A stretch of 64,000 nt of DNA from Rhizophagus irregularis. Taxonomy: Eukaryota. Where the stretch lies: positions 2,356,001-2,420,000 of the forward strand of contig NC_089430.1 in assembly GCF_026210795.1 (NCBI RefSeq), given 5' to 3'. A program made the translations under genes and the position numbers. The notes below the pieces were generated by a model. That model searched no databases. It saw nothing but the letters and a program-made list of their open reading frames with translations, and had not been told where the DNA came from. Positions 2,559 through 50,137 of this stretch are shown here, piece by piece (position 1 is the stretch's first letter; every line of letters begins with the position of its first letter).

Positions 2559-2634
2559 AAAAAATTTTCGGAAAGAAAATTTTATATCTTCGTACTAACA
2601 ACTCTTATATTTTACCTAACTCATACCTTCTAAC

Positions 2635-4766
2635 ATGTCTAGAAACCTTGCTAGAAGAGGTGGCGGCAGTTATAATCCTAATAGTAATAAGGCTGCTCCT
2701 CAAGAAAAGAAAAATAATAAAAAACAACTCCCTGACAACTCTGATTCTGTTAGTGATAACGCTTCTCAAAAACGTTCCCGTATTATTACAAAAGACTCCA
2801 TAGATGAAAACTATGAAGATTTCGTTGCCGACGCGCCGGCTGACGGTGGTTTAGTTGGTTCAACTTTGACCACTATTCCTCAACAAAATAATTCCCGCAG
2901 CACTGCCCAAGAAAATACTCATGCTTCTACCCTGAAAAATTCTGCTGCGCCCACTGCGCCTGGCCAAGACGCGTCCTCTGAAGCTAACGCGTCGATTCAT
3001 GCACCTCGTAACAAAGAAAATAACTCATCCCCTAACACGTCCCCTAATATGGATGTAAATGATGATTCATCACCCGATCAGGCTGTTGATCCCTCCCCCA
3101 CCATTACCATTAATCGTCAAGATTTCCTGGCTGCGGCTGCGCCCAACTCCGCTCCCCAAACTCTTGAGAAACTTAAAACTAATAAGGCAATTATTGAAGC
3201 TGTCAACAATTTATTTTTAGAAACTTATGAATCGTATACCGGTCAGGCTCGTATGACTGGTTCAGGGACGCTAAACGTCTTATTATTCATTTTCACACTG
3301 CGGAGGCTCGTGACTTGTGTGTTGGTAGTACACACCCAGATTTTCTGGACCTACAATTCCACCTGTACGATCCCAAACAACTCCGATCTGATGAAGACCT
3401 CTGTGCCATTCAAGTCACGGATATACCATTCTTCATTACTAAACTTCAACTCCAATCTTACTTCAAGAAATTCGGCAACTTACTTGCCCTCCATCTTTAT
3501 TCTAGGAAAGGTGCTAAGATGCAACAAGCCCGTATCGTCTATGACCACGCCGATGCGATCTTCCGTTTTACAACACAATGGGCAGTTTACTGCTTTTCCA
3601 CTTGTTTACGTGTCATCCCCTGTCATTACTCTTTAGATCAAAAAGCTGCTCAAAGAGCGTTTGTGGCAATTCTCTCTGGACTTCCCGCTAATACTAAAGA
3701 TATCCATCTCGCTCCTTTGGTTAAAGAACATGGAGCAAAAGCTATTAATATTCCCCTTTCCTTAAATTCATATAAACCCAAACCTTGGGCTTATGTTACC
3801 TTCAACTCACAAGAAACAATGGATGCCGCTATGGAGCAAACTATTGGTTTCCAAGGTCGCACTCTTCGATGGGGTACATCCAACGATTCGAAAGCTCTTT
3901 GCCACCGATGTGGTAAACTCGGTTGTGCTCCTACCTCCTGTCCGCTTAATCAACGCCGTGGTCGCTCACGTACATGTGATTCTGTTGCTGCTCTTAAAGA
4001 ACGTTTCAACATTGGCCAAAGACCCACTCAACAAAGAACGCCGCGTAATAATTCTTGTTCTCGATCTCGTTCTAAATCCCGGGATCGTTCTGCCTCTGCT
4101 CACCGTTCTAATTCCAATTCCAATAGCTCTAATAATAATGGTAATAACAATAACAATACTAAACCCTCCTCCTCTGGTTCAGCTCACTCCTCCTCAACTG
4201 CTCATGGATGAACACCTTCTAACAACCGAAAAGGCAAAGATAGATCTGTTTCTTTTTCATCCAATGCTCATGCTCTGCTCCCTGATCCAAATTCCTCTAC
4301 TGCTTTTGAGGCCGCTCTCGACATTCTAAATGTTTTGAAGACCCTCCAGCTAGATGTTGCTCATGTGGAATCCCGCATCTCATCCCTTGAACTTAACAAC
4401 CAGCGACTTTCTGCTATAGAAGCCCATCTAGGCATTAATCCTCCCTCTGCACCTGTCTTTAATTCTGAACCTGACCGAATGGAAGAAGACCCTCCTGAAA
4501 CCACTGGCACTTTAATACAGCATCCCAATGCTGCCTTATCTTCTGGTCCTATAAAACCCTCCTCCCCTAAATCTGCATCCAACAAAGCTCCGCACTCTGC
4601 TCCCGCTTCTACTTCTAACCCTTCCCCGCAAGACGAATTGAACTCAGTTATTCAAGATCAAAAAGCGATTAAAGATACTTTGCAATCGCTCACCGGTTCC
4701 ATCCAAGGTTTTATTGCTTCTCTTGGTGGTCCTCCCTCCGATCGAGCTTCAGCTCCTTCGCAATAA
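2635..4766 (+). pseudogene. LINE ORF1 (RRM-like domains, Cys/His knuckle, RS-rich region, coiled coil)
   Basis: ORFs 2635-3636, 3315-4211 and 4335-4766 join through one frameshift (~3270) and one in-frame TGA (4209-4211). Motifs WAYVTF and CHRCGKLGCAPTSC. Confidence 0.85.
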
Positions 4767-4813
4767 CTGATCTCTCACCCCTTTTCCCCGTACTTTATTA
4801 TCATTGTGTTCTA

Positions 4814-7800
4814 ATGTCTGACAATTTTAATTATGATACGTTTGTTCGCAACCCACCCAACCTTGTAGATATTTATAATTTTTCAGAATCTGAATTTTTA
4901 TTTACTACTTTAAATTCTTCTCCTATCCCTAATTCTTTTAATATCTCATCCTTTAATGTTAATGGTCTTCGCCATAATAGCCAGGTTAAAATTGAACAAA
5001 TTTCAAACTTTTTCAACATCAAACATATTTCTTTTGGTGGTATTGTAGATACCCATTTGACCCCCAAACAAATTCATTTCTTATCTAAACGCCTTTCTAA
5101 TTATACTGTCTTTTCATCTGATATAGATAAAACTAAACAAGTCAAATCTACTGGTGGTGTTTCCCTTTTTATTGAAAAATCCCTTGCTTCTCATGTACAA
5201 GATTTTGTTTCACATTCTTCACGCATTTTATCTGTTGATCTTTATTTTAAAGGCAACGTTAAACTACGCATTTTTGTTATATACATTCCTCCTATTTCTG
5301 ACTCTAAATTACGATTAGATACTATTGATATTCTTTTACAATTATTGGTGCAAACCAAACAACAAAATTTTTATCACGCCATTTGTGGCGATTTCAATAT
5401 GCATTTAGATACATATTACCCTATTTATTTTAATCGTCCTTCTATTGCTACTCAACGAACTTATCGTTTGCTACATCACCTTTTATCTCATGGTTATGAA
5501 GATATTTCTCCTGTTAACGCTTCTGCTTCCTTAGGCACCTTTTACCGTGATGACCAAGTTACTTATATAGATTATGTTTGGTCTTGTCCGATGCTAAAAA
5601 GCTTTGCTCTCACCTCCTATATATTTGACGCACAAGATACCTGTTCTTCCGATCACAATCCTATCATCACTTATTTTGATGATTCACTCATGGTTGCGTC
5701 TGTCAAGGTTGCTCGTGCTAAACAACTTTAATGTCGAACTCGTCGCATATTCAAATTTGATTCAGTCACTGCTCAACAATGGGAATCCTTTTCTGCTCGT
5801 ACTGATTCTTTATGCGACGCATCTCCGTCAACCTTTTCAACATGGCACATTAACCAACAATGCGAATATTTACATTCTCGTATCGTGAAAGCTGCTAATG
5901 CCTCTCTTCCTTCCATTACGATTGGAAATCAACATACACCTACGGTGACCAAAGATTTGGAAGCCTTAACTCAACATTATCGTTTCCTCAGTCGCCTTTT
6001 GCATTCGATACGTTTATTGCGAAAATATCCTTCTACTTATTATAATAGATATGAAAGTACTTGGTCCACTCATTTCATTAGACTTCAAAAAATTCTTCAT
6101 CTTTATAAGAAGGTTATTCCTTCTCCCCCTATTTTGCCTGTTTCTTTATCCACTTGTAGGCAAGACGATTTTAAATTTTTATTGGATTCTTTAAAGACTA
6201 TCTCCAGTGCCCTTCACGGCCTCCTTCTTCTTAAAGAAAAAGATTTTCAAGATTCTTCCATTCGTGCTAAATTGGATGATAGGGATAACAATTTTGATAC
6301 TGACATCTCCTCATTTATTGACTCAGCTCTCTCAAGAACTCGACGTAGTATTACCTTGGATCGTGTTTTTATCGACCACCCTACACATCCAAAATTATTG
6401 ACAGACCCACATGATATTGACGACGCTGTTATCAACCACTTCCGGAATTCCGTTCCTGTAAAATCATCTCCTCCAGAAAACATTTCAGCTCTCTCTGAAC
6501 GATGGTCTTTTGCTTATCACCCTATAAATGATGTGGATCCCTCTATTTATATTTCTTTATTACATGCTCCTACTTTAGAAGAATGGTTGTCTACGGTCTC
6601 TTCTATGCCTAATGATAAAGCTCCTGGTCCTTCTATGATTACTTATGAGATGCTCAAACATCTGGGTTCTAACACCTCTGCTTTGGTCTTAATCCTGGTC
6701 CAATCATGTCTTCGTACTGCAGATATCCCTGATTTATGGTGCCAGGCTATGGTTTTCCCTATCCCCAAACCTCACGAGTGGAAATGTCAACTCAAAAATA
6801 CAAGACCGATTACTCTACTCGAAGTAATTAGAAAATCTTTGGTCAAACTTTTTTATAATCGTCTCGCTTCCATTTTGGCTTCAAATGATGTTCTCAAAGG
6901 AGGAAACTTCGCCGGTCTCCCTGGTGGTTCTTGTCGCGACCCTATTGTCGTTCTCGAATCTATTATCCATGATGCTCATGTCAACAATTCGCCACTTTGG
7001 ATCCTTTCGCAAGATATTTCGAAAGCTTTCGACTCGGTTGATCTCAAGATGCTGCGTTTCGCTTTAGAACGCATTAAACTTCCTGCTTCTGCTACTAAGT
7101 TTATTTTATCCCTTTTTATGAAATGCTCTAATCGCGTTTTTACCGCTCATGGAACTACTCCTTCTTACCGTGTTCGCATTGGTATAGATCAAGGCGAAGT
7201 TATTTCTCCTTTACTCTGGGTCATATATATAGACCCTTTATTGACTGTTCTCAAAAATGAAATGATGGATCCGTATATACTTCATGCTCCTTCTTTATCT
7301 AATCCCTTGACTGAGATAAGTTCAGATGGATTACGAATCAACAACTTGGTCTTTATGGATGATTCTACTTTAATCTCGTCTTCCAAATCTGGAATGGAAT
7401 CGATGCTCTCTATTACGGAAGAATTTTATCATATCAATAATACTTCCGCTAATCACAACAAATATGTTTTAATTACTAATTCGTTGCCTCCCACTTCAGT
7501 TTCTTCGCCTTCTCCAGTCGTGTTTGACTTGCAATTATCTGAACTGAACTATGTTCCTTCCATTTCTATTGTGCCTATCTCCATGAATAGCTCTTTCCGC
7601 TTTCTGGACGTCTGGTTCAATGTCGCTGGATCTCGCGATTTTGTCAGGAAACAAGTTTCTCGTGAATGTAATTCCTTTGCTGCTACCGTTCGCCCTGCCA
7701 AATTATCTGCAAAACAAATTGTTTACCTACACAACACCGTTCTTATTCCAAAATTGGAATATCGTATGCAAGTCACTCACTTCTCTGAACCTGAATGTGC

Positions 7801-10435
7801 TTCGGCAACTAGCAGTATTCGTTCCATGATTAAACACAAGGCCAATTTCTCACGTGTTCTCCCTGATTCTATTCTGTTCTTGTCTCAAGGCTTGGGATTG
7901 ATTAATTTATTTTTTCACCAATCACAAACACATTTAACTAATTTATTTTTGTTAGCTAATTCTTCTTCTCTTTTTATGAAAAATTTATTTTTATATAGAT
8001 TACGTTTAATTCAATTTTCTTTTTTGATTCCTATTTCCCCATTGTTAGTTAAAGATTGGACTATATGGTCTAAACTTTTTGCTTTTAAACAGGATTATAT
8101 CGCTTGCACTATTGCTCTCCTGACCACCACTCCCTTCAAGTTGTTGCGTTCACGACTTTCAACTTTGTCTGACCTTACTATACCCGATGGTTATACACCC
8201 CTATTTGACGTTATGACTCCAAAAATTTTTATATCTTACTTCCGACGTCTTAGAAGTTTGCAACTTTATTACCTATCACAATTTATTACGCCTCAAGGAA
8301 CCCATATGATTACTTGGAACGTTTATCTATCCAATTTATCGAGCAGGAAAGGTCATCGTGTCCTCCCACACAAATAGTTCAATAACATTCACCAATGCGT
8401 CACTGTTCCAGGTTCCAACTCTCTCCTTTTGGATCGGTTCTCTTCTGATGCTATTCCTTCCAATATCGACTTGGTTCCCGCCTTTGGTTCCTCTCGAAAA
8501 TCCATGAAATGGATCATAACTTTGGATGATGATGGCTCTCCTCTTTTTGGAAAACAGCTCAGTAAACAGCAATATTCCTGCAAGATTGTCCATTGGACTT
8601 CTGATTGTGTGACTCGACCTAATGATGTTAACACGCTCACTCCTTGTCCTATTTGTTCTAAACATGTACCGGTTACCCATACTAAAAGCAATCCAACAGA
8701 TGTTACTCCTTTATGTATTATCCCAAAACTTTCCCCTCTTAGATCTTTGCTTCTTCCAACAACGCAGAAGCGTATTAGACATGACACCACCACTATTACT
8801 TCTCCTTTTACTTGGGCGGACCTGGACGAGACTGTAAGAACATATTATGGTCGTCTGGACATTCAACCTAATTTTTCACCTGAAGATGTGATTACTTTCC
8901 CTTCTCCTTCTCTTCCTCCCTCTTTGGACTCAGCTACTCCTTTTGCTTTTGCTGCTTCTCCGTTAGCGACTCCTCCTGACAACCATTATTGTTTTTATAC
9001 CGATGGTTCCTTAATTAACCTTGGCACTCCCGATGTTTCAATGGGTTGGTCTTGGATTCAAGTCCTAGATAGCGCTGGTTTTTTCCAATCTATCGCTGCT
9101 CACGCTCATGGAATTATTCACAATTGGCCTTCTTCTACAAGAGCTGAAATCGCAGCTATACATGCTGCTCTTACAGTCACTCCTCCTTCTTCAACGGCCA
9201 CTATTTATACTGACTCTCAATCCGCCATAGATGGTCTTCGTCTATGCGCTACTTTTTCTTATTCCAATAGTAGGCTTTATTACAAAACTACCAATTATGA
9301 ACTCTGGGCTATTATTGAGCATCTTATTTCATCCAAATCTTTATCGGTCACAGCTGTTAAAGTGAAAGGTCACTCTGGTAATTTCTACAATGACCACGCA
9401 GACTCTTTGGCTAATTCTGCGCATACTTCTTCCTCAGCCATTCTTCTTTTTGATCTGGATCAAGTATCTCCTCATGATTTCTTATTAAAATATGATGATA
9501 TTTTATGCGAATCCAACCCTCGACGCCTATTCAAGCAATATTCGCAGATGTTGTAGATGCATAGATTAACGTGTTTATCACGTTTTAACTTTACTTTAAC
9601 TTTGTCTTCCATTTCAGATTTCATAATTGACTGGGATCTTACCTGGTTCTTATTGAACTCTGAACCTCAACATGATGCCTCTTTTACTCGCGCTCATGCT
9701 TCCTCTCATCGCACATTCAAATTCAAACTCTTTTTGGAAGACTTACCCACTCTTGAACGTCTTAAAAGAATTCGTCCGGACTTGTATATCGACATTTTAT
9801 CATGTCGTTCATGTCTCAACTCCAAGGAAGACTTCATGCACTTATTCACGTGCAAATGTAGACGATTCGCTATGGAACAGATTCTCTTTGCCTATCAAAA
9901 ACACTTTATCAACAAACTCCAAGAAGCTGGTGATCTTATTTAAAAAGATCCCTCTTTAATTATTAACAAATTTATTTCTTTTCCTTGTTGGTCCTTTTCT
10001 TCTTCAAATTGGGCTTTATATAGTCTTGTCCGTGGCTGCCTTCCGAAATCCTTTGTTGAATTTTTTGAAGAACTTTCTATTCCACGTAACTCTGCGATGA
10101 AGGTTATCTCTGCCATCCACAATCATTTTATCCAAAAGATCAAAAAACGAATTTGGCTACCGCGTTCCTATGATAAATCTAAATGGGAAGACGCGATGAA
10201 TATCACTCAAAAACTTAAACTTTCTCGGCCTTCTAATTTGCCAAAGTCTACGTACTTACCTTTCTCTACTTTACCTCCTCCGACCCTTTCTGACGCCGCA
10301 CGTGACTCCGACGTTGATTATTTGAAGAACTCGATGAAATATGGTTTGCCTTGGTTTAATCACTATTCGGGTTTTATGGGTCGTCTAACGGTGCAACTTA
10401 CTAACAGCTTTAGCAGGGTGGTGTGTCGATTTTAA
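4814..10435 (+). pseudogene. LINE ORF2 (AP endonuclease, reverse transcriptase, RNase H, zinc finger)
   Basis: ORFs at 4814, 5885, 8429, 9557 and 10097 lie in one frame, broken by four stops (5729, 8375, 9554, 9941). Motifs: FNVNG/GDFN/SDH; KAPGP/RPITLL/DISKAFD/QGEVISP/FMDD; YTDGS/RAE/DSQ/KGHSGN. Confidence 0.95.
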
Positions 10436-10787
10436 TAATGGGCGCATTGTTCGTTGGTTTGTTTGCATAGTTGCTTCTTCTTAGGTTGGAATATATCTAG
10501 GCGGGGGATCAGGATAGTTTTAGTGTTATGCGATTTTTTCCTTTTCGAATTAATTTTATAGCTTTATTACTGTTTTGAAGACTATATAGTTTTGTTTTTA
10601 GTTAATTTTATTTTTCTTTTTTGTACTTTGAAAATTTTATTTTATTTTTGTAAGTTCGTTAAATAAATTTAATAAAGATAAAGGCTACTATGCCATGTTT
10701 GCCTTGATAAGGACTGATGACGATGTCACTTGGTTATTGTAAATTGAAGATAACAATTAGGTATGTAGACACATACAGAAAAAAGAC

Positions 10788-11372
10788 ATGTCTTACACTT
10801 ATATAACTAATCCTATAACCGGACGTCCAATCCGTGTTGGTGGAGATACCTTTAATCGAATAGTTATGGAATCCCATGATTATATCGATGGAAGCCTTGT
10901 CCGTAGACAAACCGCACCACCTCCACCTCAGGAACAACCTGTATATTTAAATACAGATACAGGACGCTATATTCAACACGGTACTAGAACGTATCATAGA
11001 CTGGTTGAGAGTGACTACGAGGTAGTTGAAGACTACTACCTTGTTCGTTATGAAGAGGAGGAGCTTATAGAAAAAATCATCAATGAAACACGCTATAATG
11101 AGGAAAATCTTGATAGCCAGCGGTTAACTTTCAATGTTATACAACAAATCAGGGCCGCTATTCAGGCTGACCAATATGAATATGATGATTTTATCTTACA
11201 GCAGGATACGACTAACGGGACACCTTCCTCTGGTCCTTCCGGTCGTCCACGAACTTTGGAGGATTATGCCCCGAGACTTGCAGAGCTTAATATTGAGTTG
11301 TGTAGGGAATGTCTCATGCCTGTAAGCCCAAGTGACTTAACGAACAAGTTGTGCAAGGACTGCGCTTCCTAA
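10788..11372 (+). CDS. Virus-like protein with two NPxTGRxI repeats (2-cysteine adaptor-like) and a C-terminal C4 zinc finger
   Basis: NPITGRPIRVGGDTFNRI and NTDTGRYIQHGTRTYHRL; CREC..CKDC. Confidence 0.65.
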   Translation: MSYTYITNPITGRPIRVGGDTFNRIVMESHDYIDGSLVRRQTAPPPPQEQPVYLNTDTGRYIQHGTRTYHRLVESDYEVVEDYYLVRYEEEELIEKIINETRYNEENLDSQRLTFNVIQQIRAAIQADQYEYDDFILQQDTTNGTPSSGPSGRPRTLEDYAPRLAELNIELCRECLMPVSPSDLTNKLCKDCAS

Positions 11373-11524
11373 TGGTCAGTCCTCCGGTCCTCCGGTCTTT
11401 CCAACGGTTGATCCCTTAATGCCAGTGATTTTTTTTTCTACAAATGACAGGTATTTAAAGATAACAATATATAAAAAAGATTGTGAAGGATACTAAGTGA
11501 GCGAATAATCAAAGAAAAATAGCC

Positions 11525-12076
11525 ATGTCAACATTAATCGTAATAAACCAGTGTCAGAACTGTGGAGTATTCTCTGCGAAAGCGGCATATAGAGGATTAT
11601 CCAGCGTGTTGTATAGACAGATTATAAAAAAGATTGGTGACGAGAGTGAACCTTTACAAGCCTTGGGACTTGCCAGGGATAAGTTGGTCCAGATTATCCG
11701 TCAGGCAAGTAATGCAGATTTTACGCAATTATTCACACAAAGACTGGATATGAAAATTATGGACGGAGATTCATATGAGGATACTAGGAAGTGGCTTCTT
11801 GAACAGCTTATAGCTATTGGATGTGACAGTGGGGAAATTGCCTTATATCAGTTCTTACGGAATATATACCCGGATGGTATTGACGAACCCTTTACTACAT
11901 TCTATGAGAACTATGTAAGTCATGTAAGAAATCCGATGACTAAGAACTTTGCTTCTCGAGCCTTAGGAGCTATTGAGTTAAAAGCTAGGATGCTACAGAT
12001 TGACTTCGAAGGACGTAAAAAAAGCGCCATGATTCTTAGGGCTTCTGCAGAAGAACTTCGCGAGATGGGTTGCTAA
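11525..12076 (+). CDS. Hypothetical element protein (183 aa, N-terminal CxxC)
   Basis: Intact ORF, convergent with the ATPase (13-bp gap). Confidence 0.6.
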   Translation: MSTLIVINQCQNCGVFSAKAAYRGLSSVLYRQIIKKIGDESEPLQALGLARDKLVQIIRQASNADFTQLFTQRLDMKIMDGDSYEDTRKWLLEQLIAIGCDSGEIALYQFLRNIYPDGIDEPFTTFYENYVSHVRNPMTKNFASRALGAIELKARMLQIDFEGRKKSAMILRASAEELREMGC

Positions 12077-12089
12077 AGCAACCAGATTC

Positions 12090-13313
12090 TTACAAAATAC
12101 TATTGATCTCTACTCGTAATGCTCGACGGTCCATATGGCCCTTAGAAAAGATCTGTAAAAGGACCTCGATGCCTTCTATTATTTTTTTATTATCCAAAGG
12201 GTGACTAGACTTCAGGACTTCATATCGAGAGAATAACTCTTTTACAGTCTCAGGTTTTGGAATTTCAGTCTTCGTGGTCCTATCCCGTACTTTCGCTAAG
12301 AAGTTTTGGAAGTCTGATCCCAGGGTCTTACCAGATAGTCCGTAGGCTTCCCGAAAGACGTACTTAATCCAGGTATCTGCGTTCTTAGCTATAACACCAG
12401 ATACGAGGAGGTGTTTTCTCTCTTTGGGCGATGGATATTCCTGAGCAAACTCGATTAGCTGGGAGGACTTTTTTGCTTCAGCTACGGCTTTCTGGCCATA
12501 AGGACTAAACTTCGATCGAACTGGGTTCAAACTCGGATCGAACAGGGATCGAACTGGGTTCAAACTCAGATCGAACGGGGATTGAACTGGGTTCAAACTC
12601 GGATTGAACGGGGATTGAACTGAGATCGAACTGAGACTAGTATCCCATCTAACCCGAATAGATAACGGATCGCTCTTGGATCTTCTAAGATCAAATACTA
12701 TAAATTCGCGTTGTAGAGTAAGGTCATCGATTACTGGAGCTAGTGACTCTGATTCTTCTGTATACTGGCGGATGATCCTCTTAGTATCGGTCAAACTTCC
12801 GTGACCTCCATGTAGGGAAATATAATTCACATTTTCACGAATAGCCTTGGGAATGGTAAAGAATCTTTGGGCCACATAGATACACAAGATATTTTTATGA
12901 CGCCCGTGTGTAAAAAATCCAGTGATGAGATCCTGGGTTTTTTTAGGTGCATCCATCAAATCCTCGAAGATTACCACAGTAGCCTGGGTGGAGTTGAAGT
13001 CCTTAACATTTGGAATCTCACTATGGGATACTGCGGTAAACAGAATTTCTTCTTCTTTGAAAAAATCACGTATGACTGCCCACTTCGGTTCATCGAGGTA
13101 TCTGCCAACTAGAATTTCCGCATCACATAATATGTACCTTTCGTTATCCTCCTTTGCCTTCTTGTCTCCCATTAACAAATTAATGATTATAGTTGTCTTA
13201 CCTGAGTCAGAACTTCCTGCTACGGCAAGACGGAAAGGCCATGATGGGGCAAACTCATTACCCTGTCTCGAGTCGGTCATGTACTCGTCCAAATTGTATA
13301 CATAAAGATCCAT
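12090..13313 (-). CDS. A32/FtsK-HerA-like DNA packaging ATPase
   Basis: Walker A GSSDSGKT, Walker B VVIFEDL, arginine-finger/sensor motif HGRHKNILCIYVAQ, IPKAIRENVNY. Confidence 0.88.
   Translation of the reverse strand: MDLYVYNLDEYMTDSRQGNEFAPSWPFRLAVAGSSDSGKTTIIINLLMGDKKAKEDNERYILCDAEILVGRYLDEPKWAVIRDFFKEEEILFTAVSHSEIPNVKDFNSTQATVVIFEDLMDAPKKTQDLITGFFTHGRHKNILCIYVAQRFFTIPKAIRENVNYISLHGGHGSLTDTKRIIRQYTEESESLAPVIDDLTLQREFIVFDLRRSKSDPLSIRVRWDTSLSSISVQSPFNPSLNPVQSPFDLSLNPVRSLFDPSLNPVRSKFSPYGQKAVAEAKKSSQLIEFAQEYPSPKERKHLLVSGVIAKNADTWIKYVFREAYGLSGKTLGSDFQNFLAKVRDRTTKTEIPKPETVKELFSRYEVLKSSHPLDNKKIIEGIEVLLQIFSKGHMDRRALRVEINSIL
12513..12632 (-). repeat. In-frame 33-bp tandem repeat (~3.5 copies) inside the ATPase
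   Basis: GAACTGGGTTCAAACTC units encoding (S)PF(D/N)PSLNPV(Q/R). Confidence 0.85.
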
Positions 13314-13344
13314 TTGAATTTTATTCTAACTTAGTTTAAATACG

Positions 13345-15534
13345 ATGTCGACACCAATTGCAATTTATACTCCTTCAGAGCCTACTGGACCGCCTCCTAG
13401 GGATTTGCGTGATATGAATAATATACCATTAGTTGCGGTAATTAAGGATCTAACAGATTTTTTAACTGTTAGTGATCGCATGGTTGTTAATCGAGATATA
13501 CAAAATGCAAACCATCGTCTTAAACATGCTCTTAATTTATTAATTCATCACTGTAGAGAAACATACGAAGAACGCGATATATTAAAAGCGGAACGCGATC
13601 GATCTCGAAAAGAACACGATGAATTACAAGATGAACTCGAGGTTCAAACAGGTTTGTTAGGTCTTACACAAGATGAGCTAAATATCGTACAAGATACTAT
13701 TACTGGTTTGGAAGCTAATTTGGCTGAATTGGAACGTGAGTTTGGTGGTATGCGGACGACTAATCGTCGTCTTCAGCAGCAATATAATCTTATGAGAGGA
13801 GAACGTAATAGAGCTATAGGTGAACGTAATAGAGCTATAGGCGAGCGTGATGCGGCACGAAATCGGCTTGTATATGCCAATAATCGGGTTCTTTTTGGAA
13901 TTCGAACATTGTGACGTCTTAGGAATCGACTTTTTCAACAAATAGCCGCTCTGCGTATCCAAGTACAATGGTTTTGAATTAGACAATTAAACCCTCCTCC
14001 ACCTTTTCTCAACCATCCACAAAATACGATATGGCTGCCGTTGGTATAGCTGCCCCATATTTCATGGTCGGGAAGATGAAGATCTTAATCTTTTTATTGA
14101 TAACTTTTTAGGGTATATTAATACCGTTGGTATTGATCCATTGGACGATGTTGGTGCGCCTCCTGGTCGGGTGAGAGCGATGGGGTTCTTCGTAGCTGTA
14201 TGAGAGATGAAGCGGCAAGGTGGTTTGATGCAGAACTTACTGGAAAAAATTGGGAACTCTCGAATATTCGGTTAGTAGCTGCTGCAAATAGTGGAGCCAG
14301 TGATACTCGCCGAGCATTCAGAGCTTTGGCTATTCCTGAAGCTGTTAATGGATTACATGTTGGTACTTACTTACCCGGATCTGATGCTGATGCATATTCA
14401 AGGATTGGAGTTAATGCGGCGCTAACCGTTGGAGATACATTTTTCCCATCACGCGCTGATATCGTTAGAACGAATTTTAAAGTTGAAGAGCAGTGGAGGC
14501 GTGCAGGCGGACGTCCTACTCATCAACCCATTAATGGGTTGGGAAATCATGGAGGTCCATTTAATGCTGCTGCCCAGAATCAACCGATAGTCTTACAGGG
14601 GATTCTCCTGGATCAAGCATTTATGCATATGCGCACAAATTTTCCAACCGTCGTGGAAGAAAGACTTCAGATACGATTTAGTAACCTTTACCAGGAACAA
14701 GGCGAACCTGTTCGATCTTACTATAAGCGAGTTGAGAGGGCTGGGGATATTGTAGGATATAATCGAATTATGGTTACTGACCAGTTCTATAGAGGACTTT
14801 TGCCGGAAAACGTTATTGAAGCTTCCAGAATCAGGGCGGCACCTCTTAATATATTAATCGATAGATTGAGTGATCTTGAACGACAAAAGGGTGAAATGTT
14901 CTATGGATTACAAAGGCGCCAGGGTATTGAAAAGGCTAAAAAAGAGGAATTGGCTGGCTATACTCATCCCGTGACTCCACACAAAGGTGCTGTAATACAA
15001 AGGTCAACAGATGTTATTACTCAAGAACGATTACAAGAATTGCTCAAGGCGCAGGCCGAGGAACTTACCAAGAATTTCCAGGCGCAATTTAAACAATTAC
15101 AAGCATTTAAGCCAGTTCGTAAACCACCGGTCTATAGACAACAGATTAAACCTGTTCGGCTGAAGCCACGGCCACGCGTTGTCCAACAAGATGATGATTA
15201 TCCTGATCCCGATTGGGATGATGGTTATATAGATCATGATGTTGGTGACGACCCTGATGCTCCTGAGTGGACTAGGGAGGATGATCAACATGTTATTGAT
15301 TTTATTTTGGGATATGAGACGTCTAAAAGATTTCCAAAGCGACTTCAGAAGGCTAAAGATAGACGCGATGATCTGAAATTAGCCTGAGCAATGAGAAACC
15401 TCGATCTTAATGATGATGCTATGGATATTGATACTAATACCGCGAGTTTTGATGACTTGAAAATTGTTCCCGATGAGGAAGGTGGTTTTCGGATTTGTGC
15501 GGTTCGAAGTACAAAAAAAAGTAAACTCAGATAA
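13345..15534 (+). pseudogene. Coiled-coil plus Ty3/retrovirus-like Gag capsid protein, disrupted
   Basis: Coiled coil at 13345-13914, then across TGA stops and small frameshifts: FHGREDEDLNLFIDNF...LRSCMRDEAARWF (capsid NTD-like) and FSNLYQEQGEPVRSYYKRV...DQFYRGL (MHR/CTD-like). The frame runs on past the TGA at 15385 to 15534. Confidence 0.72.
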
Positions 15535-16243
15535 GGGTGTAAGTATCTCGAAACTTCTTAAATCTGTTCCAAAAAAATCAGTTAAAATGACTCCTATTAA
15601 GATTCCTGTGAAGGTTACTAGTAGTAAGCCCACACTTATAAAAGCCGTCACCAAGAATGATTCATTAAGCTTATTAAGGTCTGCAGATTTTAGAAAATTA
15701 CTCCGCAAGATTCTTCGGGAAGAATTAAAGTCTGCTCGTAAAAGTACAGAGATTCCGAAAGACCTAGTTAAGGAAAAACAAGAAGAGGATATCAGGGAAG
15801 ATGACCCTATAGATATTGACATAGCTCGTTTGGAGAATACTAAAGATCTTTTAGCGCTAGATGGGAAGGTCAATGGGATAATGATTCAATGTTTAGCTGA
15901 CACTTGTGCTAACGCGTCTTTTATTCAGAGGGAAGCCGCTGAGGAATTAGGGTTGGATATTGACAAGAGTATTACACATAACATATCCGGCGCTCCGGAA
16001 TCTGGTAGGACATTCGGCATGGTAAAAGGTGTGTCAATCAAACTAACCCCTGATTGTGTAATCACTGAGAATCTCGCGGTTTTAAGCAATTACAAGCATA
16101 AGGAGATTGGATTGAGCCGGACGTGTCTGAAACATTACAATTATGATGTCCATGAATCACGCGAACATATCGCCCTTACTTGTAATGAGAAGAATGTTTT
16201 TATCCCGATAGTTTCTGACGTGAATCGAGGAGACAAAAAATAG
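15511..16243 (+). CDS. Retropepsin-like aspartic protease, overlapping the Gag end at an A8 run
   Basis: GKVNGIMIQCLADTCANASFI...AAEELGL and IGLSRTCL match the retroviral D(T/S)GA and hhGRDhL motifs in degenerate form. Confidence 0.75.
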
Positions 16244-17344
16244 GGAATATTTATTTTTTATTTCCAAAACTTGCGGATTAAATCAGGGACATTTTCCTCT
16301 AATCTACTAGCGGGTTCCCAAGTGGCTTCAGTATCTGAATAACGCTCCCACTTGACTAGGTACTGGTCTTGACCCTTCCTGATGTGATGCCGGAGTATCC
16401 GCTCAGGTACAAATCTTTCGGGTTGCCCTCTTATCACGGAGTTAGGTGGGGGACGTTCATTTTCTGGGACAACCTGCAACTCTTTTCGGGTGTACGCACA
16501 TCTGGATACACTTAGTCGCCCGTGTGGCCCATCAAGAAGATACGTAGGAGGCTGTTCGGGTGAGAGGATCATTTTTTTGATGACACGGATATTGGGATTC
16601 CATCTTATGTCTCCTGTACGAAATTTTCCATGAAGTTTATTACCGAGTACTGAGATAGGTTCATTTAACTTTACTCGGACACGCGTTTCTTCAGAAAGAA
16701 GTTCCGTCTTTTTTGACACTTTGGGTGACCCAGTCGGAATGTCTGGGGGATTTCTTTGCCAGAGTTTATCTATTTTATTAACTACATCATCAGCAAGTTT
16801 TAAACAGGCGTATAAAGTGTTGAAAACCGCCATGTGTTGCTCAACGCCAAAAAACGTAGGGAAATGAACCCTTTGTCAATCAACGCTACTTAAAAACGTT
16901 TAAAAACGCGTAAAACAACACCGATTTAAATGTAAAGCTACACGTAGTAAAACAACAATAGTTTAAAACTGCGTATACAATGTATAAAAACGCGTATATT
17001 GATATTAAAAACGCGTATAGCAACAGTATTTTTTAGTCATCGTACGATAGTTAACTTTAATTGTAGTATTAGTAATTTATTAACATATATCATATTATTG
17101 TATATTATTAACATATAAAATTTAATTGTAAAATATTGTAAATTTATTTATAAAATACAGTACAATACAAATAATACAAATACATTATTTAAAGAAATTA
17201 ACCTCTTGTTATAATTGGATTGCCGCGGATTTTTAAGTGATCAACGTACTAAATTTCCGTTGACAAAGCGCCCCTGGTGACACAACCATAACAAGGTGGG
17301 TTTTCAAATAAAAAAAACACAAAAGTTTCGTTAACGAAATTTAC

Positions 17345-19790
17345 ACAACCATTCGTTTTTGATGAATTTCTCTAAGTCCATTAATAATATTCCACAACAA
17401 AAGTAATCACCTTCTGCGATCTGATCCATATTCCAATAACCTGACCGAAGCCTACAAAAAAAGGAATCGTTAACAAACGTTTCCTAAAAAAGTCAATAAA
17501 TTTAAGTTTCGCAAAGATTGCGAAACTTACCATTTTTCCAAAGTAAAACACCGAATGGATCCTATAAAATAAAAGAAGGAAAACGTTAATAAACGCTTCC
17601 TAAAAAATAAAAATGAGGAAAGTTTCGTAATGAACGAAACTTACCTCAAGTTCCCGGCCAACTCAAAACTCCTGGAACTTACAAGAAAAAAAAGGAAATG
17701 TCAGTAAACATTTCCTAATTAAAAAAAACAAAAAAAACGGAAGTTTCGTAACGAAACGTACAAAACTTACCGTTTTCCAAATTTCAAAATTTCCAGAAAT
17801 CGAACCTACAAAAAAAAGAGAAAAGTTCAGTTAGAACGTTTCATAAAGAATAAATCAAAAAAAAAGAAAGTTTCGTATGAAACTTACCGTTTTTTTTTGA
17901 TTTTCTTAAATTTCCGAAACCTAAAAAAAGATCAAAGGAAACGTTAGTAAGAGTTTCCTAATTAAATAAAAAAATTATTATTAAGTTTCGTAACGAAATG
18001 AAACGTTACGAAACTTACCATTTTAAGTTTTTAATCAAAGACAAACCGAAACCTAAATAAAAGAAAAAGGAAATATTAGTAAATATTTCCTAAAAAAAAA
18101 TAAAAAAAAACAACGGAAGTTTCATAACAAAACGTTACGAAACTTACCGTTTTCCGAATTTCGAATTCCCAGAAATCAAACCTACAAAAAAAAGAGAAAC
18201 GTTCAGTTAGAACATTTCTTAAAGAAAAAAAATAAAAAAAAATGGCAGTTTCGTAATGAAACGTACGAAACTTACCATTTTACAAATTTCAAAATTCACG
18301 GAAATCGAACCTACAAAAAAAAAGAGAAACGTTCAGTTAGAACGTTTCTTAAAAAAAAATTTAAAAATAAAGTTTCGCAATGAAATGAAACGTTGCGAAA
18401 CTCACCATTTTGCCTACCCAAAGTCCGATATCTACAAAGAAAAGAAAAAAAAAGAAACGTTAGCATCATTTCTTTAAAAAATCAAAGCTTCGCAACAAAT
18501 GTTGCGAAACTCACCATCGTACTATCCAAAAGTTCGATACCTACAAAAAGAAGAAAAAAGAAACGTTAATATCATTTCTTTAAAAACAAAAAATAAAGAA
18601 AAGACTTTGAAGTTTTACCTTCAAAATCTTGTTCAGAAAACGTCCAGAAATCCGCGGACCTAAAAAAGAAAGAAAAACGAAACGTTAGTCACGTTTCGTT
18701 AAAATAAATTAAAATTAAAAAAAAAATAATTTTACCTGAATCATCCAGGAAGCGGTCCTAAAAAAATAAAAAAACGAAACGTTAGATACGTTTCGTTAAA
18801 AACAAAAAATTTAAAAAAAATTTTCGAAACGTTTTTTAACGTTTCGTTAAAAAATGAAAAAATCGGAACGTTAGCCAACGTTCCGATTAAAAAAATCAAA
18901 AAAAAATTATTTTGGAACGTTAAAAAACGTTCCGATTAAAAAATCAAAAAAAATATTACGAAACGTTAAAAAACGTTTCGTTAAAAAAAATAAAAAAAAA
19001 TAAAAAAATCGGAACGTTAGCCAACGTTCCGATTAAAAAAAAAAGAAAAAAGTTAATAACGAAAGCGTTAAAAACGTTTCGTTAAAAAAAGAAAAAATGT
19101 AAATCGAAACGTTAGGTAACATTCCGATTAAAAAAAATGAGAAAAAAAAGTTATTAACGAAACGTTAAAAACGTTTCGTTAAAAAAAAGAATAAAAAATA
19201 AAAAAATCGGAACGTTAGCCAACGTTCCGATTAAAAAAAAGAAAAAAAAGTTATTAACGAAACGTTAAAAATGTTTTGTTAAAAAAAGAAAAAAAATGTA
19301 AATCGGAACGTTTTTCAACGTTCCGATTAAAAAATGAAATAAAAAAATTAATCGGAACGTTAGCCAACGTTCCGATTAAAGAATTTTTTAAAAAAACAAT
19401 ATTTCGGAACGTTTTTCAACGTTCCGATTAAAAATTAAAAAAAAATAATAAATCGGAACGTTAGTCAACGTTCCGATTGAAAAAAATTAAAAAAAAAAGA
19501 ATATTTTGGAACGTTAAAAACGTTCCGATTTAAAAATTTAAAAAAAAAATAATAAATCGGAACGTTAGCCAACGTTCCGATTAAAGAAATTAAAAATAAG
19601 AATAATATTTCGAAACGTTACTAAAAAACGTTTCGTTAAAAAATGAAAAAGTAGTTTCGCAATGTTTCGTTGCGAAACTTACCAGAAGTTTGATACCTTC
19701 CAACTTTTTTCCGTATAAGGCTCATATCTCAGGAATTAATAACCTTATATTACGGAATTTACAGAGTTTTTACATAAATAACGGATAAAA
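17345..19790 (-). other. Putative spliced micro-exon transcription unit, probably non-coding or decayed
   Basis: 12 GT(A/G)A...poly(T)-AG introns flanking 11 internal exons of 22-41 nt. Confidence 0.7.
18770..19680. repeat. Array of about 20 palindromic units separated by A tracts
   Basis: AATCGGAACGTT-AGCC-AACGTTCCGATT alternating with CGAAACGTT-AAA-AACGTTTCG. Confidence 0.9.
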
Positions 19791-20938
19791 CTTTTTATAG
19801 GATGAAGGGGAGAATGAAAGGGTTATGGGAAAACGAATGGGAAGGGGATAATGAAAGGTAATGGGAAAAACGAAGCAAAAAAAAAATTAAGCTTTGCTAA
19901 AAAAAGCTTAATTTTTTTTTGCTATACCACAGTGGCGCAGTGGTAATTATTAATCCAGTATCACGTGACACACGTGATATATCATTACATAAAATACGTA
20001 ATGCTTAATATTAATTTTAATAAATACTTATAATAGTACAATGGTTAGATCGTGAGATTTGATATATTAATAGTGTAATTGAAGTAACCGGTTCGGTTCC
20101 TAAGGTGAGTAAAAATAAATAAATTAATATAATTTATTTAGTTGTGTTAATACTTAATATACAGTGCGTTGAACTACACATTAGAGTTGAATGACGCGTA
20201 TATTAACATTATGCGTTGGTATACTCCAGTATACGGGTGTTGATTAATATTGTAAAACGTGTTGAACAACTAGCTGGTGTTGATCAACGCGTATACTGGT
20301 GTGAATCAACACTTTTCAAACTTGCTGATGATCATGGAAATCTTCTGACCATTCCACGGATGTCACCCCGGTCTTCAACTCCTGTGCCACCATTCGTTTG
20401 AGAAGAGGTTCTTGAATAGCTTGGATAGCTCGTTCGGCATATGACTGCTGTTTGTATCTTCCCGGATCTCCAAACCTCATCATCACCCCTAGGCTGTTCA
20501 GGAAAAAATCACGTACCTGATCATTGGTTAATTCTGATCCAGAGTCTGTCTCTATTCGATGTGTTGGTGGCTTAATGCGATTTCTTCTGTAGATTTTAAC
20601 AAATCCATTGAGAACCCTATTTGCAGTTTTATCCTTTAGGGGTTCTGCGTCAACTCGTTTACCCGTGACTTCTACCACTACGAGGAAATAGTGGAATCCT
20701 TTGGGGTCGACTGACACCTCTGCGAGATCTGCCTGATGCATTGCATTTGGTTTCCATACAACTACTCGTGGACGCTCTGATGACTTCTCCTTTAGGGGCT
20801 TTTTGTATAGGTTGTAGTGCTCCTCACCTTTTAAAATTCGTGCCGGTATTCCGGATAGACTGTAGTACTTGTAGTAATTCTCTAAATGTGACATATTACG
20901 ACAAATTAAAGGAAAGATTTCGGACTTCAAATCTTAAG

Positions 20939-21258
20939 ATGACACGATTTTATTACCTAAAGTGTAAGAAGGAAACTGAGACTGCTAGTGAAATACAAGA
21001 TATGACCACAAATGGCCGCTATCATTTACATGGTGACTGTGTAGTTTGTGGGATGCATAAGAATACTTTTACTGGGATAGACTGGGTTATCAAAAAAAAA
21101 CCAAGGAGAAGAAAAAAGAAACCGCGGCTAAAAGACATCAAACGGCGTATAATCGGCAATGCAAAAAACTCGGGCAAAAAATTTTAGAGGCTGATGACGC
21201 GTGTAAACAATGTATTGATAAATGCCTTAAGGAGGCAAAAAAGAGAAAGACGGATTAG
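20939..21258 (+). pseudogene. Small zinc-ribbon protein (DUF5679-like, Polinton-associated)
   Basis: MTRFY(Y)LKCKKETET...TTNGR..LHGDCVVCGMHKNTF. The first Cys is apparently mutated and there is a frameshift in the A run at ~21095. Confidence 0.65.
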
Positions 21259-21267
21259 TACCGCCTT

Positions 21268-21792
21268 CTAAAAGTATTCCTCATCATCTGAGTCATCGAG
21301 AGATACCTCTCCATCATCTGATTCATCATCCGAGTCATCAAGAATACGACCTTCCTTAAGCAATTAGATGTTATACGTTATTTGAGTCCATTTCTCCCAG
21401 TTAGACTCTTGCGTTATAAAGCCACATCTGAGGAGGGCTTTTTCTACTGCCACCATTCCTGCGAATCTAGTGTATTTTTTCTGATCGGCTTCATTGAAAT
21501 TGTCAATGGCCTCTCTGTAGTAGTCTACTGCCTGTTTGTATACCTCCTCAGCTTCTTTATGCCGCTTCCAGAGTACTTGTTCAGCTTCGGCTCTCCAGAT
21601 TGGGCTGACTTCTAGAAGATGCGGTCCAAAATTGATACTTGGAATACATTCCAGGATATGGCCTACAAGTTCGGGGATTACTGATACTGCGTGCGGGTTT
21701 TGGTGGCTTTTTAGAATCTCCCTATTGATACCCATAAGATCAGGGACTGTGCAGCCAAAGATTCCTGCCAACTTTTTTACAGTATATGCCAT
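21268..21792 (-). pseudogene. F-box-like protein with acidic tail
   Basis: VIPELVGHILECI...LLEVSPIWRAEAEQVLWK. The frame continues past the TAA at 21364 into a D/E-rich tail. Confidence 0.55.
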
Positions 21793-22289
21793 TTTTTGTT
21801 ATATCAAATCGAGTACTAATTTATAGTTACCTAATCTTCAATTGCCGAATATATTTTTTCTGACGGGGGCAAGTGGTCATAGTTCGGGTGCCATAGTTCA
21901 GGACATAGGGGGTCATACTTGGGGGTCTAGGTGAGTATATAAATGGTAATCATAACGTGAATCGGGTTTTGGGGTTTGAGGGGCTGACTAAGGATGCCAT
22001 AGTATTATTATAAGGTTTGTTGTACTATGGCAGGTACTATGGCAGGAGATTCTGTCTGATTTCGGCTTTATTCGCATTTTTATTCCGTTTTTAAGTAGTC
22101 TGCCATAGCTGCCATAGTTGTCATAGTAAGTTATATATAAGAAAAAATGTAGAAAAAAAAATAAGTGGAAAAATACCGTGGCAGACCATGGTACTGTGGC
22201 AGGTAAACCTGCCCCACGAAGGGGGATGTAGGTACTGCGAGGCCGTGAGGCCGAGGTGGGAGGAGCGTAGCGAGGCGCACTACCAGCCC

Positions 22290-22930
22290 GATGACATATA
22301 TCCATTCTGCACATTTTTCAAATGCTTCCAGAAAGCCCTGTGGTTGATCAAGTGCTAAGTGCAATATTCTAAGAACATGCTGTAATTGCTGAAAACGTAC
22401 TAATGCTATTGCACCTCTGTTTAGAGAGGCTCAGTGACCCTTCTCGTTTCTTTCTAATTTATATGAAAACAACATCTCAAATTCTTCAATTTCCATCCCA
22501 TGACCTCTAACTAAGTTGGAAACTCTCGACTGAACTGCATGATTATTTTTAATTTTGTTGTATAACCAGCTGATATTTTTCGCTTGTTTAATAGATTCCA
22601 AACCTATATTATATTCATCCATTAAAAGTTTAAACCATTTTCCAATAATATGAGAAATATCATTCCTGGCGTCAGTCTTTATCTCAGAGGAACATTTGTC
22701 TAGCAATAATTAAGTTTAAATTTAACATAACTAAGTATCTGTATTAGACCAAGATATACATACTTTTTATATTTTTCTTTACAATTAACATAGCGTCTTC
22801 TTGAGCGATCACACTTCTCCACTTGTCATATGGAATGTTGAAAAGTTTCGCTATACCTTTAATTTTATAAGTAATCCACGTAGCTTTATTATCTGGATCA
22901 ACTCATACAGAATTTTTTTGTTCCATATAT
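22290..22930 (-). pseudogene. Fragment of unknown gene abutting the element terminus
   Basis: ORF 22431-22706 plus a further open stretch ending at the GC-rich element end; lower, host-like GC. Confidence 0.35.
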
Positions 22931-50029: not shown

Positions 50030-50137
50030 AATTTTAAATTTATCAGTGGTAGGTGAGGAGAATTTATAAAGGATTATCCGGATCATGCATGTTGATTTCA
50101 AATAAGGTTAAATTAAAATATAACGTGATGATTACCC

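What the first reader, a model, noticed from the sequence alone, without database searches (positions are those of the whole stretch)
10723..22284. Polinton-like element combining a DNA-packaging ATPase with a retroviral-type Gag capsid and aspartic protease, without RT
Seen: an intact A32-like ATPase (13313-12090) sits head-to-head with a coiled-coil/Gag-like gene, with 31 bp between ATGs. The Gag-linked retropepsin stops 14 bp from the stop of a convergent chromodomain DDE integrase. There is no room for LTRs, RT or RNase H around gag-pro, so it does not look like a separate Ty3 insertion. Known: Polintons/Mavericks pair this ATPase and integrase with double jelly-roll capsids, an adenain-type cysteine protease and pPolB, while Gag and retropepsin belong to reverse-transcribing elements. 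Inference: this may be a chimeric integrating DNA virus or transposon in which Gag and aspartic protease replace or supplement the jelly-roll module. The left arm lies beyond the LINE array, outside the window, so pPolB and capsid genes cannot be excluded.
Basis: partly seen in the sequence, partly recalled or inferred. Interest (0 to 1): 0.93.

Follow-up and report, generated by a model that had tools for sequence, protein, structure and literature searches.

The report
Fungal virophage-like element with retroviral capsid
A repeated mobile element of mycorrhizal fungi pairs the DNA polymerase, helicase, integrase and packaging-type ATPase genes of virophage-like DNA viruses with a predicted retrovirus-type capsid and protease, with no jelly-roll capsid gene found, so it likely moves its DNA in retrovirus-like particles, a mix of two unrelated virus kinds.

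Summary
This is a decayed copy of a multi-copy Rhizophagus element. The ATPase sits head-to-head with coiled-coil/Gag/protease in 18 of 19 soil-metagenome loci long enough to tell (9 of 10 lineages) and at 10 annotated R. irregularis loci (not a census). A relative's Gag models confidently, and the top 39 structural matches are all retroviral or retrotransposon capsids. Gag and protease are under purifying selection and joined by a nine-A run with a -1 frame change in 10 of 10 intact junctions. No RT or LTR was found. Relatives show the missing left arm: a small PolB closest to mavirus's plus an SF3 helicase (one lineage has a large Polinton-type PolB). Two overlapping contigs span one ~14-kb element between inverted repeats, with no jelly-roll capsid or cysteine protease. 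Best reading: a mavirus/Polinton-derived self-synthesising element whose capsid module was replaced by Gag-protease. Particle formation and DNA packaging are inferred, not shown. Partial precedent: capsid-less, ATPase-positive Glomus Mavericks are listed in print, and a 2021 figure legend names Gag/retropepsin in such an element.

The parts
10788..11372 (+). orfA, 194 aa, weak 2-cysteine-adaptor-like repeat; conserved element gene
   Evidence: Pfam 2C_adapt E 0.001, below cut-off; homologues at the same position in L009, L011, L019, L024, L026, L030, L037, L038
11525..12076 (+). orfB, 183 aa, likely a D5-helicase C-terminal-like DNA-binding protein; not capsid-like
   Evidence: Homologues convergent with the ATPase in many loci; L045 homologue matches the SF3 helicase tail at E 5e-5; Atlas leads only, score 0.83 or less, DUF3874/VapE/Pox_D5
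12090..13313 (-). A32-like packaging-type ATPase, intact, 407 aa, with a repeat linker and a conserved ~130-aa C-terminal extension
   Evidence: Pfam Pox_A32 E 3.9e-9; 234 homologues; alignment
13345..14049 (+). Coiled-coil ORF with proline-rich tail; two premature stops in this copy; overlaps the Gag ATG in the -1 frame
   Evidence: other copies read through at 13912 and 13975; same overlap in relatives
14031..15523 (+). Gag: capsid N- and C-terminal domains with a ~100-aa insertion, no zinc knuckle; broken here by two 1-nt losses and one stop
   Evidence: Model of relative P0346, pLDDT 90.3; structural matches; PEG10 CA-CTD E 8e-4; no CCHC in 8 of 8 complete Gag ORFs
15512..15523 (+). A-run just before the Gag stop; predicted -1 slip site into the protease frame (8 A here, 9 A in relatives)
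   Evidence: Nine-A run and -1 frame in 10 of 10 intact junctions; extra A in contigs of 3 of 3 DNA-type runs, at varying share
15461..16243 (+). Retropepsin-type aspartic protease frame (DTC at the catalytic motif; DSA/DSG in relatives)
   Evidence: Pfam Asp_protease_2 E 4.8e-7; motifs
16258..16787 (-). Integrase C-terminal half with chromodomain
   Evidence: Pfam Chromo E 4.7e-17; 34-41% identical to integrases of virophage-like contigs L066-L069
16788..20330 (.). Secondary 3543-bp AT-rich non-coding TIR transposon with 2-bp AT duplication, splitting the integrase
   Evidence: joint 16785-20331 in contigs of 3 of 3 DNA-type runs
20331..20894 (-). Integrase N-terminal half, rve core with D-D-E, no HHCC zinc finger detected
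   Evidence: Pfam rve E 6.1e-9; intact relatives are 363-364 aa with rve and Chromo hits only
20939..21260 (+). DUF5679 small zinc-ribbon-like ORF, frameshifted at an A-run in this copy; head-to-head with the integrase
   Evidence: Pfam DUF5679 E 1.9e-16; same position in L011, L020, L039 and L015
21364..21792 (-). orfC, 142 aa, unknown, possibly F-box-like accessory gene
   Evidence: No homologue in the loci; Atlas leads only, score 0.81
21878..22295 (.). Right terminal region, likely the terminal inverted repeat; inner boundary approximate
   Evidence: Summed contig depth falls from thousands to about 200-260 after 22293 in 4 of 4 runs, and loose ends diverge after 22295

Best explanation
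This is a decayed copy of a family of integrating, likely self-replicating DNA elements of arbuscular mycorrhizal fungi whose jelly-roll capsid and cysteine protease were likely replaced by a retrotransposon-derived Gag and aspartic protease, which would form intracellular particles carrying the element's DNA. Shown: conserved gene set and order; purifying selection on Gag and protease; the conserved nine-A/-1 junction; PolB plus SF3 helicase in relatives; inverted terminal repeats and no capsid-sized free ORF in one full inventory; no RT. Predicted: the capsid fold, and mavirus affinity of the PolB. Inferred steps: (1) the element is excised or copied and amplified as linear DNA by PolB and helicase from its termini; (2) Gag is made in excess and Gag-protease at low level by slippage on the A-run; (3) Gag assembles a shell and the protease matures it, taking the role of the lost cysteine protease; (4) the retained A32 ATPase loads or condenses the ~14-kb DNA, since this Gag has no RNA-binding zinc knuckle; (5) particles move between nuclei of the shared cytoplasm and the chromodomain integrase inserts the DNA.
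For: Head-to-head ATPase/Gag in 18 of 19 loci with at least 1500 nt upstream, 9 of 10 nucleotide clusters, ATPases 44-63% identical to the window's. Near-consecutive accessions at 10 R. irregularis loci, PolB within about 10 numbers of the ATPase at 5 of them or at similar loci and in R. clarus. Capsid fold: ranks 1-39 all CA proteins, best Z 9.7, rmsd 4.5 over 154 residues; first unrelated hit Z 4.0. dN/dS median 0.39 Gag, 0.31 protease, 0.12 ATPase. Nine-A/-1 junction in 10 of 10 (5 lineages). L015 and L045 overlap at 99% and share an inverted 123-nt end; every ORF over 200 aa is assigned. 0 hits for 12 capsid, penton-sized or protease queries from virophage-like contigs. PolB model's best viral match is mavirus PolB, E 4e-30; the integrase, PolB and helicase match virophage-like contigs L066-L069. 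Capsid-less Polintons usually lose the ATPase too, yet Glomus P_Gi1.2 keeps it (PMC4028283).
Against: No particle, packaging or activity was observed. One polyA RNA run (about 24% read) gave mean depth below 1 over ATPase-Gag-protease. From established knowledge (recalled), Gag shells co-assemble on RNA and no motor-filled Gag capsid is known. Foldseek gave no match at E 0.001 or better (best PEG10 CTD, E 0.023). The PolB model is poor (pLDDT 64, pTM 0.40; TM 0.38). Gag and ATPase distances correlate weakly (Mantel rho 0.19, p 0.066, n 13), and L001 pairs an ATPase 81% like the window's with a Gag only about 46% alike, which fits a swappable module more than a tight motor-capsid pair. L048 (41% ATPase) lacks Gag, and L038 has no integrase hit in the 617 nt beyond its protease. 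The window's own left arm was not seen. The full inventory rests on one pair of contigs from different assemblies.
Confidence: 0.55

Rival explanations
1. Same conserved element, but Gag does not package the genome. It serves as a scaffold or escort for the integrase-DNA complex, builds a replication compartment, or blocks host LTR retrotransposons, and the ATPase has some other DNA-handling job.
For: Gag evolves about three times faster than the ATPase and only weakly co-diverges with it. Lone capsid C-terminal-domain ORFs occur in L005 and L015, resembling Ty1 p22/Drt2-type restriction factors (comparison recalled; a Drt2 structure is rank 32). Domesticated Gags such as PEG10, Arc and PNMA2 are among the structural matches.
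Against: Keeping a protease under selection, in a low-level -1 fusion, is the usual logic of particle maturation. Both capsid domains are kept. The ATPase is strongly conserved although capsid-less Polintons usually lose it.
Confidence: 0.27
2. It is a virophage-like element that gets, or once got, a jelly-roll capsid in trans from another endogenous or helper virus; the ATPase is kept for that, and Gag-protease is an accessory module.
For: Integrase, PolB and helicase are related to capsid-bearing virophage-like contigs. R. irregularis carries a 1.5-Mb endogenous giant-virus region (PMC10640383).
Against: That paper found no major capsid gene in five strains, though its profiles were not virophage-specific. 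No capsid hit in 62 loci or the window. It does not explain why Gag sits beside the ATPase in 9 of 10 lineages.
Confidence: 0.1
3. Gag packages the element's RNA, and a reverse transcriptase borrowed from a host retroelement copies it.
For: Gag, retropepsin, frameshift and rve-chromodomain integrase are all retroelement-like parts; the window holds an RT-coding LINE.
Against: Inverted rather than direct terminal repeats, genes on both strands, its own PolB and helicase, no zinc knuckle in 8 of 8 Gags, and an integrase of virophage type.
Confidence: 0.05
4. Gag-pro is the leftover of a nested, deleted LTR retrotransposon in a capsid-less Maverick.
For: This copy's Gag is broken. Retrotransposons do insert into endogenous virophages (PMC8547959), which is a likely origin of the module.
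Against: Intact 437-487-aa Gag ORFs across 34-79% identity with dN/dS below 1 in all usable pairs, a fixed position and conserved junctions; other copies lack this copy's lesions.
Confidence: 0.03

Closest known systems
Mavirus and endogenous mavirus-like elements (low-GC EMALEs; PMC8547959, passages)
   Same: Replication/integration module of primase-helicase, small protein-primed PolB and rve integrase; packaging ATPase; terminal inverted repeats. Best viral structural match of the 617-aa PolB is the 617-aa mavirus PolB.
   Different: No virophage major capsid, penton or cysteine protease detected; Gag and retropepsin instead; fungal host; no helper virus shown.
Glomus Mavericks/Polintons P_Gi1.1, P_Gi1.2 and Polinton-1_GI (PMC4028283 Table S1, rows seen)
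   Same: Same host genus in old naming; 11-12 kb; P_Gi1.2 is scored MCP -, penton -, ATPase +, protease -.
   Different: No Gag or aspartic protease column in that table. Whether P_Gi1.2 is this family could not be checked (sequence not available here).
Unnamed element in Fig. 5 of Starrett et al. 2021 (PMC8502044; section 3.4 read, figure not visible)
   Same: [quoted passage not shown] 3 legend names Rhizophagus PolBs.
   Different: The section's text does not discuss it. Host and gene order cannot be seen. It is labelled with NC, which this family's Gag lacks. No conservation, frameshift or selection analysis in what I read.
Ty3/gypsy LTR retrotransposons and their domesticated Gags (PEG10, Arc, PNMA2)
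   Same: Two-domain capsid fold, retropepsin, -1 gag-pro junction (retroviral comparison recalled).
   Different: No LTR, RT, RNase H or zinc knuckle; the integrase is a separate, convergent gene of virophage type.
Caulimoviruses (recalled)
   Same: Gag-derived coat and aspartic protease around double-stranded DNA.
   Different: They make that DNA by reverse transcription and have no PolB, helicase, packaging ATPase or integrase.

Membership tests
Polinton/Maverick | rve-family integrase | tested here: met
   rve and Chromo hits; intact 363-364-aa relatives
Polinton/Maverick | Protein-primed family B polymerase | tested here: met
   In relatives only: DNA_pol_B_2 E 1.8e-6 in L045; large Polinton-type PolB in L022, which overlaps Gag-bearing L021/L035 at 98%. 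Protein priming itself untested; window's left arm not visible.
Polinton/Maverick | FtsK/A32 packaging ATPase | tested here: met
Polinton/Maverick | Terminal inverted repeats | tested here: met
   Relative L015/L045: 123 nt identical and inverted at both ends, about 800 nt long if the inferred end is right
Polinton/Maverick | 5-6 bp target-site duplication (recalled) | not testable with these tools
   No locus holds both flanks; no genome is held
Polinton/Maverick (polintovirus state) | [quoted passage not shown] | tested here: not met
   No unassigned ORF over 200 aa between the repeats of L015/L045; 0 hits. Applies to that relative; many Polintons also lack it.
Polinton/Maverick (polintovirus state) | Penton | tested here: inconclusive
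   No hit, but small ORFs of 106-197 aa were not folded
Polinton/Maverick (polintovirus state) | Adenain-type cysteine protease | tested here: not met
   0 hits with 3 protease queries that do find each other's contigs; no Pfam hit in the L015/L045 ORFs scanned
Mavirus-type virophage | SF3 helicase + small PolB + rve integrase module | tested here: met
   L037, L045; helicase tail joined to PolB in 5 R. irregularis gene models
Mavirus-type virophage | Virophage major capsid, penton and protease | tested here: not met
   (penton inconclusive as above)
Mavirus-type virophage | Dependence on a giant helper virus | not testable with these tools
   Needs infection experiments
Ty3/gypsy LTR retrotransposon | Gag with capsid fold | tested here: met
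   Predicted fold; Retrotrans_gag E 3.5e-5 in L038
Ty3/gypsy LTR retrotransposon | Reverse transcriptase and RNase H | tested here: not met
   None in the L015/L045 inventory; 74 of 74 long Gag-protease models are 737-921 aa with no RT Pfam (that search scored only 7990 candidates)
Ty3/gypsy LTR retrotransposon | Long terminal direct repeats | tested here: not met
   ends are inverted
Ty3/gypsy LTR retrotransposon | Integrase within the pol polyprotein, same strand as gag | tested here: not met
   Separate, convergent gene in the window and in 7 loci

The most novel reading that the evidence does not exclude
A double-stranded DNA virus lineage of virophage/Polinton descent swapped its jelly-roll capsid for a retrotransposon Gag shell, and its A32 motor now fills Gag capsids with linear DNA made by a DNA polymerase, with no reverse transcription: a cross-realm capsid replacement and a motor-packaged Gag particle, spread across arbuscular mycorrhizal fungi.
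Probability: 0.35. Interest if true: 0.95.

Novelty: new variant of a known kind. Interest (0 to 1): 0.8.

Why it matters
Capsid type defines the deepest divisions among viruses, and Gag shells are tied to reverse transcription in the cases I know (recalled). A selected, conserved Gag-protease module in a PolB-replicating element would show a Gag capsid working for a pure DNA replicon. It would also explain a listed oddity: a Glomus Maverick that lost capsid and protease but kept its ATPase. It gives a direct test (express Gag, protease and ATPase; look for DNA-filled particles) and a candidate vehicle for DNA movement between nuclei in fungi, where Maverick elements are reported as recently expanded (10.1101/2021.03.30.436303).

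Tried and rejected
No whole genome is held, so no census, left end or target-site duplication. IMG/VR scans with the Gag alignment and with a zinc-knuckle Gag found no relative; the ATPase scan found only 3 distant virophage/PLV-like contigs. The prokaryote genome collection was not scanned. No RNA holder was listed by the run search. Foldseek on the Gag model: no match at E 0.001 in PDB or BFVD. PDB sequence search with the PolB profile: 0 hits at E 1. No strong RNA structure downstream of the slip site (-4.6 to -11.0 kcal/mol per 75 nt), so a classical pseudoknot-stimulated frameshift is not supported. A possible shared promoter motif occurred 3 times in 11.6 kb of element against 9 in 41.7 kb of flank: rejected. 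The weak Gag_p24_C hit on orfB (E 0.048) was set aside as noise. The L061 row was dropped from the junction count (protease frame itself broken), leaving 10 of 11 rows. The accession pair on the contig whose ATPase is 100% identical to the window's was left out as possibly the same locus. The ATPase-Gag complex prediction gave no verdict. Earlier scan notes: nothing. Literature searches found no paper describing this family in its text; the 2006 and 2007 Polinton/Maverick papers were not seen.
Full report
1. Observation. The 'Gag-like gene' is three frames: a coiled-coil ORF (13345-14049), Gag (from 14031) and protease (to 16243). This copy has premature stops and single-base losses in homopolymer runs that contigs of other runs do not share. 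The integrase is interrupted by a 3543-bp TIR element; the uninterrupted joint exists in 3 of 3 DNA-type runs laid. Multi-copy sequence ends near 22295 in 4 of 4 runs. The only RT and RNase H are in the LINE to the left.

2. Host and copy number. The ATPase search returned 234 proteins; most of the closest are labelled Rhizophagus irregularis, with R. clarus and many unnamed metagenome proteins further down. PolB relatives include Diversispora epigaea. A search for longer relatives of the Gag frame gave 74 proteins, all R. irregularis gene models of 737-921 aa ending in the protease, none with an RT family; that search scored only 7990 candidates.

3. Synteny. Of 62 metagenome loci found with the ATPase, 19 hold at least 1500 nt upstream and 18 of them carry Gag head-to-head; 7 shorter ones do too; the other 36 are too short. 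The profile was built from these loci, but R. irregularis queries found the same ones. The 19 loci fall into 10 nucleotide clusters, 9 with Gag. The exception, L048, has a distant 41% ATPase. A convergent integrase follows the protease in 7 loci of 3 clusters; L038 shows none in the 617 nt available. In R. irregularis annotation, ATPase and Gag-protease have accession numbers 1-5 apart at 10 loci (CAB4441470/71, GET56454-57, GET67232/35, GET67062-67, CAB5188301/02, GBC12195/97, GET52522/24, GET65743/44, GET66491/93, GET54509/12). These were picked or noticed by shared contig length, so they show recurrence, not frequency.

4. Gag is a capsid protein by prediction. A profile of the Gag region hits the PEG10 capsid C-terminal domain first in PDB sequences (E 8e-4). 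A relative (P0346, 43% identical to the window's piece) folded with pLDDT 90.3 and pTM 0.82. Against 48,161 representative chains, ranks 1-39 are all retroviral, Ty1/Ty3/copia, Arc, PEG10 or PNMA capsid proteins. Best: HIV-1 CA, Z 9.7, rmsd 4.5 over 154 residues spanning both domains; C-terminal-domain matches have rmsd about 2 over about 70 residues; the first unrelated row has Z 4.0. Foldseek ranked the same proteins first but none reached E 0.001. The N-terminal domain carries a confidently modelled insertion of about 100 residues. None of 8 complete Gag ORFs has a CCHC knuckle.

5. The module is maintained. Pairwise dN/dS medians are 0.39 for Gag (101 of 105 pairs usable, maximum 0.62), 0.31 for protease (14 of 21) and 0.12 for ATPase (63 of 105); pairs are not independent and many are near saturation. 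At the Gag end, 10 of 10 intact junctions (5 clusters; one broken row dropped) have exactly nine A's just before the stop, with the protease in the -1 frame. No strong downstream structure was found, so slippage on the A-run, by ribosome or polymerase, is the likely route; ribosome sliding on A-runs is reported in PMC4363877 (search listing only). Splicing is not excluded, as RNA coverage was too low. Against tight coupling: Gag and ATPase distances correlate weakly (rho 0.19, p 0.066).

6. The missing left arm. Beyond orfB and orfA, relatives carry a 624-663-aa family B polymerase and then a 770-800-aa SF3 helicase (L011, L024, L037, L045). The same PolB lies 6-10 accession numbers from the ATPase at R. 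irregularis loci CAB4441334/40, CAB4420166/72, GET67074/67, GET66500/493 and GET56444-49/54, and 2 apart in R. clarus; 1 of the 5 PolB queries could not be compared. L015 and L045 overlap at 98.8-99.8% and share an inverted end, giving one inventory of about 14 kb: repeat, helicase, PolB, orfB, 178-aa ORF, ATPase, coiled-coil, Gag, protease, integrase, DUF5679, 106-aa ORF, repeat. No ORF is left for a major capsid protein, and 12 capsid, penton-sized or protease queries from virophage-like contigs hit neither the 62 loci nor the window (such queries are weak across lineages). One lineage (L021/L022/L035) has a large Polinton-type PolB instead.

7. Ancestry. The PolB alignment retrieved 4 IMG/VR contigs. 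All 4 encode an SF3 helicase and an rve integrase, 3 with a chromodomain; 2 have Sputnik-type capsid hits and 2 an A32 hit. The window's integrase halves match all 4 at 34-41%, so the integrase belongs with the DNA-virus module, not with the Gag donor. A low-confidence PolB model matches mavirus PolB far better than anything else in BFVD (E 4e-30, next 1e-12). Low-GC endogenous maviruses have this helicase/PolB/integrase module and are often hit by Gag-coding retrotransposons (PMC8547959, passages), a plausible route for the capture.

8. Mechanism. I commit to intracellular Gag particles that carry the element's DNA and integrase, with the protease maturing the shell and the ATPase loading it (0.55). 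The strongest indirect argument is retention: capsid-less Polintons tend to lose ATPase and protease together with the capsid (PMC4028283, passages), whereas here the ATPase is strongly conserved and sits beside a new capsid and a new protease. The main rival is a non-packaging role for Gag (0.27). None of this was observed. One polyA RNA run, matched by species label only and about 24% read, showed mean depth below 1 over the module, and this copy is dead.

9. What is known. Glomus Mavericks without capsid but with ATPase are tabulated (PMC4028283 supplement rows). R. irregularis Mavericks are reported as recently expanded (10.1101/2021.03.30.436303, passages). No major capsid gene was found in five strains (PMC10640383, passages). 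A 2026 preprint notes Glomus and Rhizophagus A32 ATPases related to Maverick-Polintons from fragmented assemblies, with no occurrence of 'gag' (10.64898/2026.06.19.733378, passages). Most importantly, the Fig. 5 legend of PMC8502044 lists Gag, retropepsin and S3H labels for MELD-related elements (section 3.4 read; same legend in the preprint 10.1101/697771, passages). The figure cannot be seen, and the supplement was cut before its tables, which may bear on priority. PMC5751038, PMC4409740, PMC3671162 and 10.64898/2026.10.13.758929 (passages) added nothing on this. Searches found no paper treating the family in its text.

10. Verdict. A real, conserved and selected chimeric family; works like a mavirus/Polinton in replication and integration; fails membership of virophages, capsid-bearing Polintons and LTR retrotransposons on tested features. 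New variant of a known kind, with a bare gene-label precedent. Interest 0.8. It would be categorically new if Gag is shown to package the DNA (probability 0.35 for the full motor-filled version).

Noticed in passing
window 16788-20330: 3543-bp AT-rich non-coding element with 13-bp terminal inverted repeats, a 2-bp AT duplication and internal arrays of short palindromes; superfamily not determined.
   Followed up: partly
window 1306-10731 and 1-1305: Tandem 9.4-kb LINE units (RRM ORF1; endonuclease, RT, RNase H) abut the element's left side and hide its left arm; a 17-nt motif at each 3' end recurs at 2543.
   Followed up: partly
L015:128-445 and L005:2508-2879: Small ORFs matching only the Gag capsid C-terminal domain (one fused to an F-box), in two lineages; may limit copy number in the way Ty1 p22 does (recalled).
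   Followed up: partly
window 14031-14049 and relatives: Gag ATG lies 13-16 nt before the coiled-coil stop in the -1 frame in 18 of 23 junction rows, after a proline-coding C/A-rich run; 5 rows have the stop just upstream. Reinitiation, a separate transcript or splicing are all open; R. irregularis gene models bridge it with an intron.
   Followed up: partly
L021/L022/L035: A lineage with the same Gag/ATPase pair but a 1193+-aa Polinton-type PolB, 41% like that of viral contig L063: replication modules appear to have been swapped.
   Followed up: partly
P0368, P0372, P0379, P0383, P0391, P0411: More distant Gags with the same insertion plus a CCHC zinc knuckle (10 of 150 listed hits); genomic context unknown; candidate donors or sister elements.
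   Followed up: partly
L011, L024, L037, L005, L013, L017, L018: Variable F-box-like accessory ORFs between ATPase and PolB.
   Followed up: no
L048: Distant short ATPase (41%) with a Uma2 endonuclease upstream instead of Gag and a 164-aa ORF downstream that looks retropepsin-like by eye, with no Pfam hit.
   Followed up: partly
window 48509-54873: Host-type genes: BTB/TLD-like ORFs and a duplicated ~400-aa P-loop GTPase-like gene (labels by eye; duplication).
   Followed up: no
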